From: Candidatus Levyibacteriota bacterium
GTDB taxonomy: Bacteria > Patescibacteriota > Microgenomatia > Levybacterales > UBA12049
Direction of reading: 5' to 3'
Length of the DNA stretch: 64,000 nt
Assembly: GCA_043807135.1 (NCBI GenBank)
Contig: JAZDGF010000003.1
Span: forward strand, 72,621-136,620
Shown: positions 6,100 through 21,905 of the stretch, one piece after another
How the letters are laid out: every line of letters begins with the position of its first letter
Numbering within the stretch: the first letter of the stretch is position 1
Notes under the pieces: model-generated
What the model was told of the DNA's origin: nothing
Database searches by the model: none
Seen by the model: only the letters and a program-made list of their open reading frames with translations
Program-made: the position numbers and the translations under genes

Positions 6100-6803
6100 T
6101 AATTTATTTTCTCCTTTAAAAAAGTTTTTTCTAAAACTTCAATTGAAGCTTTCATGAAAAGTACTGTTTTACAATTTAAAACTTCATATGTATTTAACAT
6201 TTTTGCGCTTAAAATAGTTACACCTTTTAAATTTCTTCCTGATTTAAATATATTTTCATAACCATTAATTGTATCCGGTGTAACCAATAAAATTTTTCTG
6301 TTTTTCTCTTCAAACTTAAGGTTTTTAATTACATCTGCCATTTTTTTTGTTTTTGTTTCGATTTTTTCAAGGCCTGTCAAAACCATTATTTTTCCTTCTT
6401 GTTTTTTAACTGTAAGCGAAGAAAATAAAGCTGCTTTTTTCATTTTCTTTGGCATTTTCATTGAATAATCTCTTGGTCTTGGTCCAAAAACAACTCCTCC
6501 TCCAACCCAGATTGGAGCAGATTTTGCACCATGTCTTGCTCTTCCTGTTCCCTTTTGTCTCCAAGCCTTATGAGTAGTTGCATTTATTTCTCCTCTGGTT
6601 TTTGTAGAATGGGTTCCTTTTCTTTGATTTGCAAGATATACTCTTACGGCTTGCGCCAAGAGTGTTTTGTTTACTTTTGTATCAAAAATCTCTTTAGGAA
6701 GATTTATTTTTTCTATAATTTTTCCTTTTAGATCATATACGTCCATTTTCAAACCAGTTGTTTTTTTAACTTCTTTTTTAACTATAGTTTTTACTTTAGG
6801 CAT
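6099..6803 (-). CDS. rplD: 50S ribosomal protein L4
   Basis: The 234-aa L4-like protein lies between L3 and L23. Confidence 0.88.
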
Positions 6804-7593
6804 TTTCCTCCTTCACTTCTTCTTTTTTTTCTTTAACCTCTTCTTTTATTTCTGCTACTTCTTTAACTTGTGTTTTTTCTTCAGTATCTTTTGGTTTTTC
6901 AACACTTACTTCTGTTTTTACTTCTTCTTCAGCAATTTCTCTATATAATGGGACAAAGTTTTTGTTTTTACCCACCTTTTTAATCATAAGTAATGATTTT
7001 TTTACGCCTGGAACAAGTCCTCTAAGTAAAATTGTTCCGTCTTCTTTTATTTCAATTACTTCTAAATTTTTAACGGTTACTTGCTCATGTCCCATGCGCC
7101 CTGCCATTTTTTTACCTTTATACACTCTCCCTGGTGTAGTTGTTTGACCAATAGATCCGGGAGCTCTCTCCCTATCAGATTGACCGTGGGTTCTTGGACC
7201 ACCTTTAAAGTGGTATCTCTTAACTACTCCTGCAAATCCTTTTCCTTTAGAAATTCCAACCACATCAACTATGTCTCCTGGTTCAAGCAATTCCGAAACA
7301 TTAATTTCATAACCAGGTTCAATTTCCGGAATATCCGTAAGTCTAATTTCTCTAAAAAAACGGGGTGTTTCTTTTAACCCCGCTTTATCACTGTGCCCTT
7401 TTAATGGCTTGTTTGTTTTTTTCTTTGTTCCAAATCCAAGCTGAATTGCATTGTATCCGTCTTTTTCTGCTGTTTTTACTTGAGATACTCTATTTCCTAA
7501 AGAAGTTACGACAGTAAGCGGAATCCTTTTCCCATCTTCTAAAAAACCTTGTGTCTGATAATCTTTCTTGCCAATAAATCCAGTTATATTCAT
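6796..7593 (-). CDS. rplC: 50S ribosomal protein L3 with a Lys/Glu-rich C-terminal tail
   Basis: The 265-aa protein has an L3 core (GKGFAGVVKRYHFKGGPRTHGQS) plus an [28 protein letters not shown] tail. Confidence 0.9.
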   Translation of the reverse strand: MNITGFIGKKDYQTQGFLEDGKRIPLTVVTSLGNRVSQVKTAEKDGYNAIQLGFGTKKKTNKPLKGHSDKAGLKETPRFFREIRLTDIPEIEPGYEINVSELLEPGDIVDVVGISKGKGFAGVVKRYHFKGGPRTHGQSDRERAPGSIGQTTTPGRVYKGKKMAGRMGHEQVTVKNLEVIEIKEDGTILLRGLVPGVKKSLLMIKKVGKNKNFVPLYREIAEEEVKTEVSVEKPKDTEEKTQVKEVAEIKEEVKEKKEEVKEENA

Positions 7594-7618
7594 ATCTATT
7601 CCAGGGATGGTTCAAACA

Positions 7619-7644
7619 ACAAAAAAAGCGGCTCCCTAAGCCGC
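7619..7644 (-). terminator. Intrinsic terminator/attenuator hairpin GCGGCU-UAGGG-AGCCGC followed by U7, about 25 nt upstream of the rplC ATG
   Basis: Plus strand 7628-7644 reads gcggctccctaagccgc, a 6-bp GC stem, preceded by A7 at 7621-7627. On the minus strand this is a hairpin followed by UUUUUUU. Confidence 0.6.
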
Positions 7645-7720
7645 ATCTTCTTTCGAAGCTAAAGCTATACTCAGGTAGTCAATCTCACATTTTTTATTAT
7701 AACCATGTAAAACTGGGATT

Positions 7721-7749
7721 ATTATATATGGAAACGGGGCTAAATGCAA
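7721..7749 (-). promoter_or_regulatory. Sigma70-like promoter TTGCAT-17nt-TATAAT inside the rpsJ-rplC intergenic region
   Basis: Minus strand reads TTGCATttagccccgtttccataTATAAT. The -35 element is at plus 7744-7749 and the -10 at 7721-7726, with a 17-nt spacer. Confidence 0.45.
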
Positions 7750-7833
7750 GTAATTTAAAACTAAAATTTAAAAAATATAATTTTAATTTCTTATTTTTTT
7801 TGGCAGGAATTGGTTTACTTATGCACTCCTTCA

Positions 7834-8142
7834 TTAGGTTCTTATCTCAATATTCACGCCTGCGGGAAGTTCCAGATGAGTTAAGCTATCAATGGTTTTT
7901 TCAGTAGGAGACATAATATCAATTAATCTTTTGTGTGTTTTTATCTGAAAATGATCTCTTGCGTTTTTATCTATAAAAGGGGACCTGTTTACCGCATAGA
8001 CTGTTCTTTTGCTTGGAAGAGGTATTGGACCCACGACTTTGGCACCGGTCCTAATGGCCGTATCTAATATCTGTTGACACGTAGAGTCAATTACTCTAGC
8101 ATCGTAGCTTTTTAAACGTACTCTTATTCTTCCTTTTGGCAT
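7834..8142 (-). CDS. rpsJ: 30S ribosomal protein S10
   Basis: The 102-aa protein begins MPKGRIRVRLKSYDARVID, an S10 signature. Confidence 0.93.
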   Translation of the reverse strand: MPKGRIRVRLKSYDARVIDSTCQQILDTAIRTGAKVVGPIPLPSKRTVYAVNRSPFIDKNARDHFQIKTHKRLIDIMSPTEKTIDSLTHLELPAGVNIEIRT

Positions 8143-9349: not shown

Positions 9350-9381
9350 AAAAAAAATAACCTCTTTATTCTCTAAAGGTT
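9350..9381 (-). promoter_or_regulatory. Leader stem-loop (7 bp) plus U8 ending 8 nt before the tuf ATG
   Basis: Minus strand reads AACCUUU-agagaauaa-AGAGGUU-a-UUUUUUUU-gaucaaau-AUG. Plus-strand arms lie at 9359-9365 and 9375-9381, with A8 at 9350-9357. Confidence 0.45.
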
Positions 9382-9387
9382 AAAGAT

Positions 9388-9571: not shown

Positions 9572-9838
9572 TTAATCAGAAATTGGATTATCTACGAAAT
9601 ATCTTGTAAGCTTAATGTTTTTTCTTAATCCAGACGCTTTTATTTTTCTAAAAACCAACGGAACAAAAACTATTAAAAAAGTAAATACTCCGAAAACAAA
9701 AGCTATTAAAAGAGCAAATGGGACTGATCCTTGAATTACCCAAACAGCAAAGTAAATCCAGGCAAAAGAGGATATTTGCAATATAAAAATTGCAAATAAA
9801 GCAAGTGCTCCCGCAACTAATAGTGCGTAATAGATCAT
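9572..9838 (-). CDS. Small integral membrane protein (2 TM), hypothetical
   Basis: The 88-aa protein has two long hydrophobic segments and a basic C-terminus. Confidence 0.5.
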   Translation of the reverse strand: MIYYALLVAGALALFAIFILQISSFAWIYFAVWVIQGSVPFALLIAFVFGVFTFLIVFVPLVFRKIKASGLRKNIKLTRYFVDNPISD

Positions 9839-9856
9839 ATTATTTCTCTAATTAAG

Positions 9857-9879
9857 AAAAAAGACCGCTTAGCGGTCTT
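9857..9879 (-). terminator. Rho-independent terminator downstream of maf
   Basis: Plus strand reads aaaaAAGACCGCttaGCGGTCTTaaa, a perfect 8-bp stem with a 3-nt loop. On the minus strand the hairpin is followed by UUUU(UU). Confidence 0.6.
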
Positions 9880-9949
9880 AAATTTACAGCTCAAAGCCAT
9901 GTTAAATCTTTCGTAATACATAAATCAATTAGACAAAGAGATACGGAAA

Positions 9950-10537
9950 CTATTTCCAATGACTACTTATATTAATACCAAATTCTTGTAGTGTTTTGCA
10001 AACAGCAAAAATTGGAAGACCTACTACATTAAAAAAATCTCCTTCTACTTTTTCAATAAATACCCCCGCTTTATCTTGAATCCCGTATGCTCCTGCCTTA
10101 TCCATTAGCTTACCTGTTTTTACATATACTTCTATTTCTTCCTTTGTAAGTTTTTTAAAATAAACTTTAGAAATAACTGATCTGGTTACGGACTTTTTTG
10201 TTTTAGTATCTAGAACAGTAAAACCGGTAATAACTGTATGCTTTCTACCAGATAGTTTTTGCAAAATCTCACTCGCATTCTTTTCAGAAGTTGGTTTCCC
10301 AATAATTTCTTTGTTTTGAACAACAATTGAATCAGCAGCAATTACAATTGCATTTTTATATTTTTTTAATATAGCATTTGCTTTTTGTCTGGATAATTTC
10401 TCAGCAAGTTTTTGAGGATTTTTTTCAACTATCAATTTTTCATCAATATTACTTACAACAACCTTAAATTTTAAGCCTATACTCTCTAGGAGCTGTTTTC
10501 TTCTTGGTGATCTTGATGCAAGTATTATTCTTTTCAT
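9950..10537 (-). CDS. maf: Maf-like nucleoside triphosphate pyrophosphatase / septum formation protein
   Basis: The 195-aa protein begins MKRIILASRSPRRKQLL and ends ...AGAYGIQDKAGVFIEKVEGDFFNVVGLP, Maf family motifs. Confidence 0.85.
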   Translation of the reverse strand: MKRIILASRSPRRKQLLESIGLKFKVVVSNIDEKLIVEKNPQKLAEKLSRQKANAILKKYKNAIVIAADSIVVQNKEIIGKPTSEKNASEILQKLSGRKHTVITGFTVLDTKTKKSVTRSVISKVYFKKLTKEEIEVYVKTGKLMDKAGAYGIQDKAGVFIEKVEGDFFNVVGLPIFAVCKTLQEFGINISSHWK

Positions 10538-12716: not shown

Positions 12717-12732
12717 AGTTTAAATTTAGTCA

Positions 12733-12760
12733 AAAAAAACTTCCCCCTTCTAAAGGAAGC
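12733..12760 (-). promoter_or_regulatory. Terminator-like leader hairpin plus U8 ending about 16 nt before the fusA ATG
   Basis: Minus strand reads CUUCCUUU-agaa-AGGGGGAAG-UUUUUUUU. The stem has 5 Watson-Crick and 3 G-U pairs. Confidence 0.45.
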
Positions 12761-12902
12761 TATGCGTAGTATAGCATAAATTAACGGTTAATTACTATTT
12801 TCCATCTCTTTAAAAATGGATAGCTTTACGAGCACACCTTGTTCTTGGAAAACCATCGCTAATCTTTGATCAAATTGCTGTTCAATTTCTTGATAATATT
12901 AA

Positions 12903-21149: not shown

Positions 21150-21905
21150 TTAAGCTCCTCTTTCTCTTACGGCAATTCTATATTTACAATAGTCACAATC
21201 TTCTCCGGACTTGGGTATTTTATCGTCTCTTAAACAGTTAATTGCATCATTAATAGTTTTTTCAACCCAAGAATCATTTCCTTTATATGGCAAAATCTTA
21301 ATATCAAATTCAAGCTTTGCATCAAAAGCTTTTTTATCGGTAATACCATTACAATATACAAAATATCCTGTGTCTGACACTTTGTAGCCGTTTTTTCTAA
21401 ACAACCATTGATAAATTTCCATCTGTCTTTTATACCCATCTTGCCATTCCTTATCTAAAGTTACCTCTTCTTCTTTAGAAGTTGCTTTGTAATCAACAAT
21501 AATATATTCCCCATTTGGATTTATCCAAACATCATCTATTCCTCCTGTGACAATAACGTTTGAGTGATCAATTCTAGCAGTTATTCCCCTCCTCATAGCA
21601 TCTCTCCACTCATCTATTTTTTCATGATCTAAAGGAATTGCATCAACTCCATATGTTGTCATTAAAGGATGAGCTGTTTTTTTAGCTCTATGAATATCAA
21701 ATTCTTTTTTTAATAACTTATCTACTGCGGAATTTAGAGAAAACGGATAACCTGGAGGCTGACCTACACCAAGACGACGATCTAAGTAAAAGCAACGTGG
21801 ACAACTAATAAATAAATCTATTTTACTTCTGCTTAAGCGAAATAAATCAGTTGTGCTGGGGTTATATAAATATTTTTTCCGGTTAGGATTATAATATTGA
21901 GACAT
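21150..21905 (-). CDS. PD-(D/E)XK-superfamily nuclease with a four-Cys (putative Fe-S) signature, Cas4/RecB-nuclease-domain-like
   Basis: The 251-aa protein has N-terminal CPRC, C-terminal CDYCKY, and a GIDDVW...IIVDYK motif matching D..(D/E)xK. Confidence 0.5.
   Translation of the reverse strand: MSQYYNPNRKKYLYNPSTTDLFRLSRSKIDLFISCPRCFYLDRRLGVGQPPGYPFSLNSAVDKLLKKEFDIHRAKKTAHPLMTTYGVDAIPLDHEKIDEWRDAMRRGITARIDHSNVIVTGGIDDVWINPNGEYIIVDYKATSKEEEVTLDKEWQDGYKRQMEIYQWLFRKNGYKVSDTGYFVYCNGITDKKAFDAKLEFDIKILPYKGNDSWVEKTINDAINCLRDDKIPKSGEDCDYCKYRIAVRERGA

What the first reader, a model, noticed from the sequence alone, without database searches (positions are those of the whole stretch)
7594..7833. 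A 240-bp insertion between rpsJ and rplC carrying its own promoter and a leader terminator that ends 25 nt before the rplC start
The minus strand reads TTGCAT-17-TATAAT, then a leader of about 130 nt. The leader has a GNRA-tetraloop hairpin (CUUC-GAAA-GAAG) directly followed by GCGGCU-UAGGG-AGCCGC plus U7, then GUUGUUUGAACCAUCCCUGGAAUAGAU-AUG. This is the layout of a ribosomal-protein-controlled attenuator, as in the L4-regulated S10 leader of E. coli, but placed between S10 and L3 instead of upstream of S10. It would uncouple rpsJ from the rest of the S10 operon.
Basis: seen in the sequence. Interest (0 to 1): 0.55.

Follow-up and report, generated by a model that had tools for sequence, protein, structure and literature searches.

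The report
Conserved attenuator leader upstream of rplC
In a group of ultra-small (CPR/Microgenomates) bacteria, the ribosomal protein L3 operon has its own conserved promoter, an 11-codon reading frame and a stop-or-go RNA hairpin switch, which probably throttles ribosomal-protein production and may do so by sensing the cell's own ribosomes.

Summary
Between rpsJ (8142-7834) and rplC (7593-6796), minus strand, lie TTGCAT-17-TATAAT, a leader, a CUUC-GAAA-GAAG hairpin, a GC-rich hairpin with U7, and 27 nt (not 25) to the rplC ATG. It is not a genome-specific insertion. All Microgenomates relatives examined that retain rpsJ on the same contig have a gap of 108-2900 nt, often filled with unrelated genes. 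In every Levy-type relative and most of the others, a promoter-leader-terminator module abuts rplC. Twenty-nine Levy-type leaders share the exact promoter, an ATG 10-16 nt after the -10 box, an 11-codon frame (12 in L089) ending in UAG, UAA or UGA, and a terminator whose loop and 3' arm are complementary to the end of that frame. This antiterminator shows covariation: 77% of cells pair against 26-50% in slid controls, and 0 of 500 shuffles reach it. Masking the mini-frame in silico restores the terminator in 23 of 24 leaders. An ATG close to the -10 box is also found in 54 of 63 other, structurally different rplC leaders (controls 3-8 of 61). Rfam has no match. Verdict: a transcription attenuator for the rplC operon (about 0.85). 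Its sensor is unproven: ribosome occupancy of the mini-ORF is about 0.5 and r-protein binding about 0.3. It is a new variant of a known kind.

The parts
7744..7749 (-). -35 hexamer TTGCAT
   Evidence: Sequence. TTGCA(T/A) is present in all 24 Levy-type leaders at exactly 17 nt from TATAAT. Conservation between the window and its closest relatives begins sharply here.
7721..7726 (-). -10 hexamer TATAAT
   Evidence: Sequence. Invariant in 29 leaders.
7712..7716 (-). Predicted transcription start, about 7 nt after the -10 box (inferred, not mapped)
   Evidence: Inferred from standard sigma-70 promoter geometry. There are no transcript data.
7671..7706 (-). Leader mini-ORF of 11 codons plus stop (ATG GTT ATA ATA AAA AAT GTG AGA TTG ACT ACC TGA; MVIIKNVRLTT*). 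It has no Shine-Dalgarno sequence and starts 14 nt after the -10 box.
   Evidence: The frame, the ATG and a stop at the same position are kept in all 29 Levy-type leaders, and all three stop codons are used. An ATG 5-18 nt after the -10 box is also seen in 54 of 63 other rplC leaders, against 3-8 of 61 in control windows. Translation itself is not shown.
7669..7682 (-). Antiterminator 5' strand UUGACUACCUGAGU (last three codons, the stop, and 2 nt beyond)
   Evidence: RNAduplex gives -10.8 kcal/mol with the terminator, against -6.2 +/- 2.2 for shuffles. Covariation. Present in the MFE of the nascent leader.
7647..7658 (-). Central hairpin P2, CUUC-GAAA-GAAG
   Evidence: Sequence. A local hairpin at this position folds in most leaders but with different sequence and loop. 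Energy support is weak (mean z -0.94). It is 100% conserved within the window's subclade.
7628..7644 (-). Intrinsic terminator hairpin GCGGCU-UAGGG-AGCCGC (-10.0 kcal/mol)
   Evidence: Terminator scan. RNAalifold consensus with 4 compensated pairs. Energy.
7629..7641 (-). Antiterminator 3' strand GCUUAGGGAGCCG (end of the terminator 5' arm, the loop, and nearly all of the 3' arm)
7621..7627 (-). U7 tract of the terminator
   Evidence: A U-run follows the hairpin in all 29 leaders.
7594..7620 (-). 27-nt segment between the U-tract and the rplC ATG. AACCAU (7612-7607) can pair with AUGGUU at the mini-ORF start (7706-7701).
   Evidence: MFE of the full leader. Duplex -10.6 kcal/mol with 0 of 300 shuffles as good. 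The helix is kept in the subclade through a double change (L081, AUGGCU:GGCCAU) and a wobble (L165). It is not universal among the other Levy-type leaders.
7750..7833 (-). Non-conserved A/T-rich spacer after rpsJ; not part of the module
   Evidence: 47-54% identity to subclade relatives, which is effectively unalignable. In other relatives this position holds 0.1-2.9 kb of unrelated genes.
6796..7593 (-). rplC (L3), first gene of the regulated operon (rplC-rplD-rplW-rplB-rpsS...)
   Evidence: ORF list. Pfam Ribosomal_L3 in homologues.
7834..8142 (-). rpsJ (S10), last gene of the upstream tuf-rpsJ unit
   Evidence: ORF list. Pfam Ribosomal_S10 in relatives.

Best explanation
This is a transcription attenuator that controls the rplC (L3) ribosomal-protein operon from its own promoter. 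RNA polymerase starts a few nucleotides upstream of an 11-codon, SD-less mini-ORF. The last codons and stop codon of that ORF are complementary to the loop and 3' arm of an intrinsic terminator that ends 27 nt before rplC. If the ORF end is free when the terminator region emerges, it pairs with the loop and 3' arm (antiterminator) and polymerase reads through into rplC. If a ribosome is translating the mini-ORF or terminating on it, that strand is masked, the terminator hairpin forms, and transcription stops. The proposed signal is therefore how readily ribosomes initiate on the nascent leader, which would be a negative feedback from free ribosomes onto ribosomal-protein synthesis. Shown here: the conserved promoter, the terminator, the antiterminator complementarity with covariation, the conserved frame, and the position on rplC only. 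Inferred: the start site, translation of the mini-ORF, and the direction of the effect. Confidence is about 0.85 that it is an rplC attenuator with a terminator/antiterminator switch and about 0.5 for the full statement including the ribosome as sensor.
For: Promoter: TTGCA(T/A)-17-TATAAT in 24 of 24 leaders, with a sharp onset of conservation at the -35. Selection: the leader is 87-92% identical in the subclade, against 81-83% for rplC, 60-68% at rplC third positions and 47-54% just upstream of the -35. Terminator: scan hit and RNAalifold consensus with compensatory pairs. Antiterminator: own-sequence duplexes of -10 to -16 kcal/mol against about -5 to -8 for shuffles in most lineages. 76.6-77.2% of cells pair, against 25-53% in slid controls; the covariation score is 0.233-0.246 against 0.086 or less in slid controls; 0 of 500 shuffles reach it. 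The third base of the stop codon covaries with its partner (AU 12, GC 11). Switch behaviour: the MFE of the nascent leader contains the antiterminator and no terminator in 17 of 24. Masking the ORF gives the terminator in 23 of 24. In the window the two states are -18.8 and -18.5 kcal/mol. Mini-ORF: ATG invariant, 11 codons (12 in L089, which has a 3-nt insertion), stop always present as UAG, UAA or UGA, frame 0 open in 24 of 24. It is kept in six subclade sequences whose substitutions cluster in codons 2-8, and in L003, which was found by the model and was not in the training set. Generality: 54 of 63 structurally different Microgenomates rplC leaders have an ATG 5-18 nt after the -10 box (5 more have GTG), opening 4-12 codon frames, against 3-8 of 61 in control windows. 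Plausibility of translation: 8 of 44 genes in the window have a -10 box ending 6-7 nt before the ATG, a leaderless signature. Specificity: the covariance model hits only the site upstream of rplC in the window and in about 820 kb of related loci.
Against: There are no transcript or translation data. The start site, termination and mini-ORF translation are all inferred. The ATG is 10-16 nt from the -10 box, not the 6-7 nt of the genome's clearly leaderless genes, so the mini-ORF would have a 3-9 nt SD-less 5' UTR of unknown efficiency. Because RNA pairing constrains the same nucleotides, the open frame is only moderately informative: frame +2 is also open in 18 of 24. The L005/L085 leaders keep the ORF but lack the complementarity, and it is marginal in L001, L004 and L013. 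The L015 group uses a register shifted by 3 nt. In 7 of 24 leaders the terminator is already in the MFE. Characterised r-protein attenuators in Gram-positive bacteria sense an r-protein, not the ribosome (PMC4538822).
Confidence: 0.5

Rival explanations
1. Same attenuator, but the sensor is a ribosomal protein encoded in the operon (L4 by analogy with E. coli, or L3 as the first gene). When in excess over rRNA, the protein binds the leader, at the 5' region/antiterminator strand or the conserved hairpins, and favours the terminator. The 5' AUG would serve another purpose.
For: Every experimentally characterised r-protein operon attenuator works this way: E. coli S10/L4 (own knowledge), and B. 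subtilis L20 and L10(L12)4 (PMC4538822). An L4 leader upstream of rplC has been proposed in Archaeoglobi (PMC7247131). Within the subclade even loops and linkers are invariant: 50 nt with no change between the window and L081. That is more than simple hairpins need and is typical of protein-binding RNA. The Davies-type leaders at the same position look like a structured aptamer with a P1 helix overlapping the terminator.
Against: It does not explain why a start codon near the 5' end and a short frame are kept across at least four unrelated leader architectures, or why the stop codon stays a stop while covarying with its partner. No rRNA mimicry could be tested, and there is no match to any known r-leader. 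Between Levy-type lineages the central hairpin is not conserved in sequence.
Confidence: 0.3
2. The hairpin is an unregulated, partially efficient terminator. It ends tuf-rpsJ transcripts and sets a fixed read-through level. The 5' AUG or mini-ORF and the long-range pairings only stabilise the 5' end of the rplC mRNA, or tune rplC translation. There would be no sensing.
For: In the window this is the only terminator-like element between rpsJ and rplC. The read-through RNA folds into a long stem that pairs the 5' end with the segment after the terminator, as 5' stabilisers do. A weak hairpin with a U8 run also sits directly before tuf, so U-rich elements close to the ATG may be a general feature of this genome.
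Against: The promoter lies upstream of the terminator in every genome, and the module stays attached to rplC when unrelated genes, on either strand, separate it from rpsJ. A passive terminator does not need a conserved complementary strand with covariation or a near-isoenergetic two-state design.
Confidence: 0.12
3. The promoter-to-terminator unit is a gene for a small RNA of about 95 nt (or an 11-residue peptide) with a function of its own in trans, and rplC expression by read-through is incidental.
For: A strong promoter, a discrete terminator and very high sequence conservation. Attenuator-derived small RNAs and leader peptides with trans functions exist: rnTrpL and peTrpL, from titles and abstracts listed.
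Against: It is found only immediately upstream of rplC, 7-30 nt from the ATG in most genomes, and never elsewhere. rplC has no other possible promoter. The peptide sequence is poorly conserved.
Confidence: 0.05

Closest known systems
E. coli S10 operon leader (L4-mediated transcription attenuation and translational control)
   Same: A leader with an intrinsic terminator a few tens of nucleotides before the first cistron of the operon that encodes L3, L4, L23, L2 and others. Premature termination is expected to set operon output.
   Different: That leader lies upstream of rpsJ, whereas this one lies between rpsJ and rplC and has its own promoter. There is no detectable sequence or structure similarity. 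The E. coli element has no leader ORF and no antiterminator; L4 with NusA stabilises a paused complex (own knowledge). Here an explicit antiterminator with covariation overlaps a mini-ORF.
B. subtilis rplJL leader (L10(L12)4-dependent attenuation; Yakhnin et al. 2015, PMC4538822)
   Same: An attenuator of a ribosomal-protein operon with mutually exclusive antiterminator and terminator structures. A leader peptide is present and influences expression.
   Different: There the sensor is the L10(L12)4 complex binding an anti-antiterminator. The leader peptide has an SD, lies downstream of the terminator, and raises expression, presumably by blocking Rho. Here the ORF is at the 5' end, has no SD, overlaps the antiterminator strand, and is predicted to lower expression. 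It also controls a different operon and uses a different RNA.
Ribosome-mediated leader-peptide attenuators (trpL, pheL, hisL, pyrL type)
   Same: A short leader ORF whose occupancy by a ribosome decides between antiterminator and terminator hairpins upstream of an operon.
   Different: There are no runs of regulatory codons and the peptide sequence is not conserved, so the signal would be whether translation occurs, not where the ribosome stalls. There is no SD and the AUG is nearly leaderless. Absence of translation is predicted to give read-through, whereas in trp it gives super-attenuation (own knowledge). The regulated genes encode the ribosome itself.
B. subtilis infC-rpmI-rplT leader (L20) and the other Rfam r-protein leaders, including the Archaeoglobi L4 leader upstream of rplC (PMC7247131)
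   Same: Lineage-restricted cis-regulatory leaders of ribosomal-protein operons, several with terminators. One candidate also precedes rplC.
   Different: No match to any of them. The best is L20_leader at 13.7 bits against a gathering score of 58.7, which is chance level. The phylum is different (CPR/Microgenomates) and no rRNA mimicry has been identified.

Membership tests
E. coli-type S10 leader (L4 attenuator) | Located in the 5' leader of rpsJ, the first gene of the S10 operon | tested here: not met
   The element lies downstream of rpsJ and upstream of rplC. In relatives it stays with rplC when rpsJ is up to 2.9 kb away.
E. coli-type S10 leader (L4 attenuator) | Intrinsic terminator hairpin with a U-tract about 30 nt before the first cistron | tested here: met
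   GCGGCU-UAGGG-AGCCGC plus U7, then 27 nt to the ATG.
E. coli-type S10 leader (L4 attenuator) | Homologous sequence and secondary structure (hairpins HA-HE) | tested here: inconclusive
   No Rfam family matches at E<=10 apart from chance-level hits. I could not confirm that an S10-leader model is among the 4227 families.
E. coli-type S10 leader (L4 attenuator) | L4 binding and NusA-dependent enhancement of termination | not testable with these tools
   Requires biochemistry.
Rfam ribosomal-protein leader families (L10, L13, L19, L20, L21, L4-Archaeoglobi, S4, S15 and others) | Covariance-model score at or above the family gathering threshold | tested here: not met
   No gathering-level hits in the window or in 18 related loci. 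The best sub-threshold hit is L20_leader at 13.7 bits against 58.7.
Ribosome-mediated (leader-peptide) transcription attenuators | Short ORF within the leader, upstream of the terminator | tested here: met
   A frame of 11 codons (12 in L089) is conserved in 29 leaders.
Ribosome-mediated (leader-peptide) transcription attenuators | Mutually exclusive terminator and antiterminator, with one strand inside or next to the ORF | tested here: met
   The ORF end pairs with the terminator loop and 3' arm, with covariation.
Ribosome-mediated (leader-peptide) transcription attenuators | Regulatory codons (runs of the cognate amino acid) or a conserved arrest peptide | tested here: not met
   The peptides vary (MVIIKNVRLTT, MVIQTEVIEAT, MSKLLKFFLVT and others) and show no codon runs.
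Ribosome-mediated (leader-peptide) transcription attenuators | Ribosome-binding site for the leader ORF, and its actual translation | tested here: inconclusive
   There is no SD upstream, and the AUG would be 3-9 nt from the inferred start site. The genome shows leaderless-type gene starts. Translation itself cannot be tested here.
Gram-positive r-protein attenuators (B. subtilis L20 and L10 type) | An r-protein-bound anti-antiterminator that mimics the protein's rRNA site | not testable with these tools
   There is no rRNA in the window and no binding data. No conserved anti-antiterminator was found; the 5' hairpins differ in register between lineages.
Sigma-70-type promoter | -35 and -10 hexamers with 17 +/- 1 nt spacing, conserved upstream of the transcript | tested here: met
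   TTGCA(T/A)-17-TATAAT in 24 of 24 leaders. The window alone is not significant. The start site is not mapped.

The most novel reading that the evidence does not exclude
Across Microgenomates, the rplC (S10/spc-type) ribosomal-protein operon is controlled not by one of its own proteins but by the ribosome itself. A nearly leaderless mini-ORF at the 5' end of the leader reports how quickly free ribosomes initiate on the nascent RNA. Its occupancy masks an antiterminator, so that abundant ribosomes terminate transcription of ribosomal-protein genes. The GGAGGUGAU motif inside most Levy-type mini-ORFs is a perfect Shine-Dalgarno complement with no start codon after it. It could reinforce this effect by holding the 30S subunit or the terminating ribosome on the antiterminator strand.
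Probability: 0.4. Interest if true: 0.8.

Novelty: new variant of a known kind. Interest (0 to 1): 0.6.

Why it matters
Autoregulation of ribosomal-protein operons is a textbook case of feedback, yet the known RNA leaders are narrowly distributed, and none has been described for the Candidate Phyla Radiation, a large part of bacterial diversity with unusual ribosomes. This locus defines a well-populated new leader family: 29 Levy-type members here and at least three further architectures at the same position. It has a clear two-state switch supported by covariation. It also shows that in this clade rpsJ is uncoupled from the rest of the 'S10 operon', with the junction acting as an insertion site for unrelated genes. 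If the conserved 5' mini-ORF is the sensor, this would be a direct ribosome-to-ribosomal-protein feedback that bypasses individual r-proteins, and it could be tested with simple start-codon, stop-codon and compensatory mutations. If an r-protein is the sensor, it would still be a new RNA partner for L3 or L4.

Tried and rejected
1. Known RNA families: Rfam E-value scan of the gap and gathering scans of the whole window and of 18 related loci found nothing. No tRNA or tmRNA. 2. Promoter significance from the window alone: the consensus scan does not list TTGCAT-17-TATAAT, and the motif is not enriched. Only comparative data support it. 3. RNAalifold on the MAFFT alignment recovers only the terminator. 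The antiterminator had to be specified and tested explicitly. 4. Central GNRA hairpin as a conserved motif: rejected. The sequence and loop differ between lineages, and energy z-scores are weak (mean -0.94). 5. A universal closing helix between the 5' end and the post-terminator segment: significant in the window's subclade and a few other lineages but not in general, so it is treated as lineage-specific. 6. GGAGGUGAU as the SD of a downstream cistron: no start codon follows at a usable distance (inspection). The motif is also absent from the window's subclade, so it cannot be essential. 7. A conserved 5' anti-antiterminator hairpin: the predicted 5' hairpins differ in register between lineages. 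8. A second copy of the element elsewhere: the covariance model finds none in the window or in the flanks of 160 loci. 9. Similar attenuators before fusA and tuf: those regions have hairpin/U-run elements but not the promoter/mini-ORF/antiterminator layout. 10. A systematic test of whether the stop codon abuts the antiterminator in the non-Levy classes was considered but not run. The architectures are too heterogeneous for one automated rule. Manual inspection of the Woese-type A leaders suggests that UCUUUG, just after the stop, pairs with the terminator 3' arm CA(A/G)AGG, but this was not quantified.
Full report
1. What is in the sequence. The window's minus strand carries fusA, maf, a small membrane ORF, tuf and rpsJ (8142-7834). 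A 240-nt gap (7833-7594) follows, then rplC (7593-6796), rplD, rplW, rplB and rpsS. These are TTGCAT (7749-7744), a 17-nt spacer, TATAAT (7726-7721), CUUC-GAAA-GAAG (7658-7647), GCGGCU-UAGGG-AGCCGC (7644-7628) and U7 (7627-7621). The distance from the U-tract to the rplC ATG is 27 nt, not 25. The terminator scan reports the hairpin. The promoter is not reported, because TTGCAT matches TTGACA at only 3 of 6 positions, and the motif is no commoner in the window than in shuffles. Rfam gives only chance-level hits in the gap (best leader hit L20_leader, 13.7 bits against a gathering score of 58.7). It gives nothing at gathering level in the whole 64 kb. There are no tRNAs. The window alone therefore shows a good terminator and a plausible promoter, and nothing more.

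2. Comparative context. Scans with the L3 protein returned 160 loci from genomes and metagenomes. The closest are Levybacteria and other Microgenomates (CPR), so the window is from that clade. In every Microgenomates locus that contains both genes, the rpsJ-rplC gap is 108-2900 nt. In the non-CPR outgroups it ranges from a 4-nt overlap to about 90 nt (9-40 nt in Dehalococcoidia). The large gaps hold unrelated genes on either strand, including peptide deformylase, HTH/toxin-antitoxin-like, NUDIX-like, racemase-like and methyltransferase-like ORFs. Whatever the gap size, most loci have a -10 box, a leader and a GC-rich hairpin with a U-run in the roughly 130 nt before rplC, usually 7-30 nt from the ATG. 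The '240-bp insertion' is therefore the compact form of a clade-wide arrangement in which rplC has its own promoter-leader module. Uncoupling of rpsJ from rplC is supported.

3. The Levy-type leader family. Twenty-four distinct leaders, including the window, align over their whole length (A1). All have TTGCA(T/A), exactly 17 nt, then TATAAT, so TTGCAT is this clade's -35 form and the promoter is real by conservation. A covariance model built with only the terminator as structure finds a single copy in the window (74 bits; the next hit is 13 bits). In about 820 kb of related loci it hits only directly upstream of rplC. It also recovered L003, which was not in the training set and has the full architecture. 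A protein search and contig look-ups added four closer relatives (L3 72-82% identical) with 214-251-nt gaps. Within this subclade the module from the -35 to the rplC ATG is 87-92% identical. That compares with 81-83% for rplC DNA, 60-68% for rplC third codon positions, and 47-54% for the 84 nt upstream of the -35. Between the window and L081, 50 consecutive nucleotides (central hairpin to U-tract) are unchanged. The module is under purifying selection at least as strong as that on the ribosomal-protein genes.

4. A conserved mini-ORF. In all Levy-type leaders an ATG lies 10-16 nt after the -10 box and opens an 11-codon frame. L089 has 12 codons through a 3-nt insertion, and L004 has 11 or 12 depending on which ATG is used. 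The frame ends in UAG, UAA or UGA at the same alignment column, and the first U of the stop is invariant. In the window this is ATG GTT ATA ATA AAA AAT GTG AGA TTG ACT ACC TGA (7706-7671). The peptides are poorly conserved (MVIIKNVRLTT, MAIKKSVKLTT, MVIQTEVIEAT, MSKLLKFFLVT and others). In the six subclade sequences the substitutions cluster in codons 2-8. None closes or shifts the frame, and the stop changes from TGA to TAA in L081. Frame 0 is open in 24 of 24 leaders, frame +1 in 0 of 24 and frame +2 in 18 of 24. A shuffled interior stays open with probability of about 0.44. Because the sequences are related and are also constrained by RNA pairing, this is only moderate evidence. Stronger evidence comes from outside the family. 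Among 63 distinct non-Levy rplC leaders with a recognisable promoter and U-run, covering at least three other architectures, 54 have an ATG 5-18 nt after the -10 box and 5 more have a GTG. Nearly all open frames of 4-12 codons; the exceptions are one 21-codon frame and two that run to rplC. Equal-sized control windows elsewhere in the same leaders score 3-8 of about 61. A start codon near the 5' end is thus a selected feature of rplC leaders throughout the clade. No SD precedes it. However, 8 of 44 genes in the window have a -10 box ending 6-7 nt before their ATG (9 in the 4-10 nt bin, against 0-5 in other bins). Leaderless initiation therefore appears common in this organism.

5. A terminator/antiterminator switch. 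RNAalifold recovers the terminator, with four compensated pairs. The last codons and stop of the mini-ORF are complementary to the terminator loop and 3' arm. In the window, UUGACUACCUGAGU (7682-7669) pairs with GCUUAGGGAGCCG (7641-7629) at -10.8 kcal/mol. The terminator hairpin is -10.0, and shuffles give -6.2 +/- 2.2. In most other lineages the duplex is -10 to -16 kcal/mol, against about -5 to -8 for shuffles. On A1, the 11-pair helix (columns 51-61 with 108-118) has 76.6% of cells paired, against 25-53% when the partner is slid by 1-3 columns. Five pairs have double changes, and 0 of 500 shuffles reach the observed score. On the 29-sequence alignment made by the terminator-only model (A4), the figures are 77.2% against 26-50%. 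The covariation score is 0.246 against 0.073 or less, and again 0 of 500 shuffles reach it. The third base of the stop codon covaries with its partner (AU 12, GC 11) while the codon remains a stop. Folding the nascent leader up to the terminator 3' arm puts the antiterminator, not the terminator, in the MFE in 17 of 24 leaders. Forbidding pairing of the ORF (AUG to stop+10), as a ribosome would, yields the terminator in 23 of 24. For the window the two states are nearly isoenergetic, at -18.8 and -18.5 kcal/mol. There are exceptions. L005 and L085 lack the complementarity. L001, L004 and L013 are marginal. The L015 group pairs in a register shifted by 3 nt (and inspection of A1). The unusually large, sequence-conserved terminator loops (e.g. 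ACUAUGUG) make sense as the landing site for the antiterminator strand, since the loop is transcribed before the 3' arm (inference).

6. Other structural features. The central hairpin is a local stem-loop in most leaders, but its sequence and loop vary (GAAA only in the window's subclade and L089) and its energy z-scores are weak. In the window's subclade, the 5' end including the mini-ORF start (AUGGUU) pairs with AACCAU just after the U-tract. The duplex is -10.6 kcal/mol and 0 of 300 shuffles match it. The helix survives a double change in L081 (AUGGCU:GGCCAU) and a wobble in L165. The read-through RNA would thus fold into one long irregular stem. This helix is not general in other lineages. 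Most Levy-type leaders outside the window's subclade carry GGAGGUGAU(C) in codons 6-8. This is a perfect SD complement with no start codon downstream. Its role is unknown. It could hold a 30S subunit or a terminating ribosome over the antiterminator strand.

7. Mechanism. Shown: a conserved promoter; an on-path intrinsic terminator, since no room exists for another promoter before rplC; a covarying antiterminator; a conserved short frame near the 5' end whose end is the antiterminator 5' strand; and exclusive association with rplC. Inferred: the start site about 7 nt after the -10 box; translation of the mini-ORF; and that occupancy masks the antiterminator and favours termination. The most economical reading is ribosome-mediated attenuation. 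In this reading the signal is simply whether a ribosome has loaded on the nascent leader by the time polymerase reaches the terminator. That would be a negative feedback from free ribosomes onto the operon. I put about 0.85 on 'rplC attenuator with a terminator/antiterminator switch' and about 0.5 on the ribosome as sensor. The main rival (about 0.3) is the classical one, in which L4 or L3 binds the leader, as in E. coli S10/L4 (own knowledge) and B. subtilis L20 and L10(L12)4 (PMC4538822). The near-total invariance of loops and linkers within the subclade fits a protein partner. The clade-wide 5' start codon does not follow from that model, although the two mechanisms are not exclusive. A passive terminator/stabiliser (about 0.12) and a trans-acting small RNA or peptide (about 0.05) are less consistent with the covariation and the fixed position.

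8. Comparison with known systems and novelty. No Rfam family matches the window or 18 representative related loci. Searches of the paper library found no r-protein leader described for CPR. The Eckert and Weinberg catalogue lists an archaeal L4 leader upstream of rplC and a Firmicutes S10 leader, and nothing from this clade. The B. subtilis rplJL leader is the nearest precedent for a leader peptide in an r-protein attenuator. That peptide, however, has an SD, lies downstream of the terminator and acts positively against Rho. The element works like a leader-peptide attenuator and sits where an r-protein leader would. It fails defining features of the E. coli S10 leader (position) and of trp-type attenuators (regulatory codons, SD). 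I classify it as a new variant of a known kind.

9. Limits. Everything rests on sequence comparison and thermodynamic folding. The sequences are phylogenetically related, so shuffle statistics overstate independence, and the slid-partner controls are the more reliable comparison. The mini-ORF alignment and the antiterminator occupy the same nucleotides, so coding and pairing constraints cannot be fully separated.

Noticed in passing
L001-L160 (e.g. L001:1015-3001, L009:934-3001, L012:1770-3001, L035:96-2998): The rpsJ|rplC junction is an insertion hot spot in Microgenomates. Gaps of 0.1-2.9 kb carry unrelated cargo on either strand (peptide deformylase-like, HTH/toxin-antitoxin-like, NUDIX-like, racemase-like, MGMT-like, Fic-like ORFs), always upstream of the rplC promoter-leader module.
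   Followed up: partly
L036-L078, L111-L135 (Davies-type); L027-L035, L113 (Woese-type A); L038, L105-L117 (Woese-type B); L054, L065, L122, L128 (CCCCAAUCUGGGGC terminators): At least three further, structurally different leader classes sit upstream of rplC in other Microgenomates. Each has a promoter, a very short 5' ORF and a terminator. The Davies-type has a conserved aptamer-like core (UUUCAGUAGAUCGCGCGUC...GAUACGGCGAUUGAA...ACUGAGUGAG...CUCACUCUUUUU) whose outer helix overlaps the terminator 5' arm. None matches Rfam.
   Followed up: partly
window genes starting at 21905(-), 21979(+), 32738(-), 35894(-), 39721(-), 55990(-), 60515(-), 59617 region: Eight of 44 likely genes have a TATAAT-like box ending 6-7 nt upstream of the ATG and no Shine-Dalgarno sequence. 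This suggests that leaderless mRNAs are common in this CPR genome.
   Followed up: partly
Levy-type leaders outside the window's subclade, e.g. L009:2873-2983, L012:2875-2987: A perfect Shine-Dalgarno complement GGAGGUGAU(C) lies inside the mini-ORF (codons 6-8) with no start codon after it. It also occurs directly after the start codon in Woese-type B leaders (AUGGAGGUGGUU). It is degenerate in the window (AAUGUGAGAU). Its function is unknown.
   Followed up: partly
window 9572-10537 (minus strand): A Maf-like gene and an 88-residue membrane ORF, with a strong terminator at 9879-9861, are inserted between fusA and tuf. The classical str operon is therefore interrupted as well.
   Followed up: no
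window 9352-9383 and 12730-12761 (minus strand): Hairpin plus U-run elements sit directly before two other translation genes. One is a weak AACCU...AGGUU hairpin with U8, 9 nt before the tuf ATG and downstream of TTGACG-17-TATATT. The other is a terminator-like hairpin with U8, 14 nt before the fusA ATG, in a 186-nt rpsG-fusA gap. Neither has the mini-ORF/antiterminator layout.
   Followed up: partly
window 6796-6960 (C-terminus of rplC): L3 carries a Lys/Glu-rich C-terminal extension of about 50 residues (…[44 protein letters not shown]). Homologues range from 224 to 372 residues, so this tail is variable within the clade. rplD overlaps rplC by 8 nt.
   Followed up: no
window 1-64000: No tRNA, rRNA or any Rfam family at gathering level in 64 kb, even though the region is dense in translation and transcription genes (rpoB, rpoC, rpsL, rpsG, fusA, tuf, S10/L3 cluster).
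   Followed up: no
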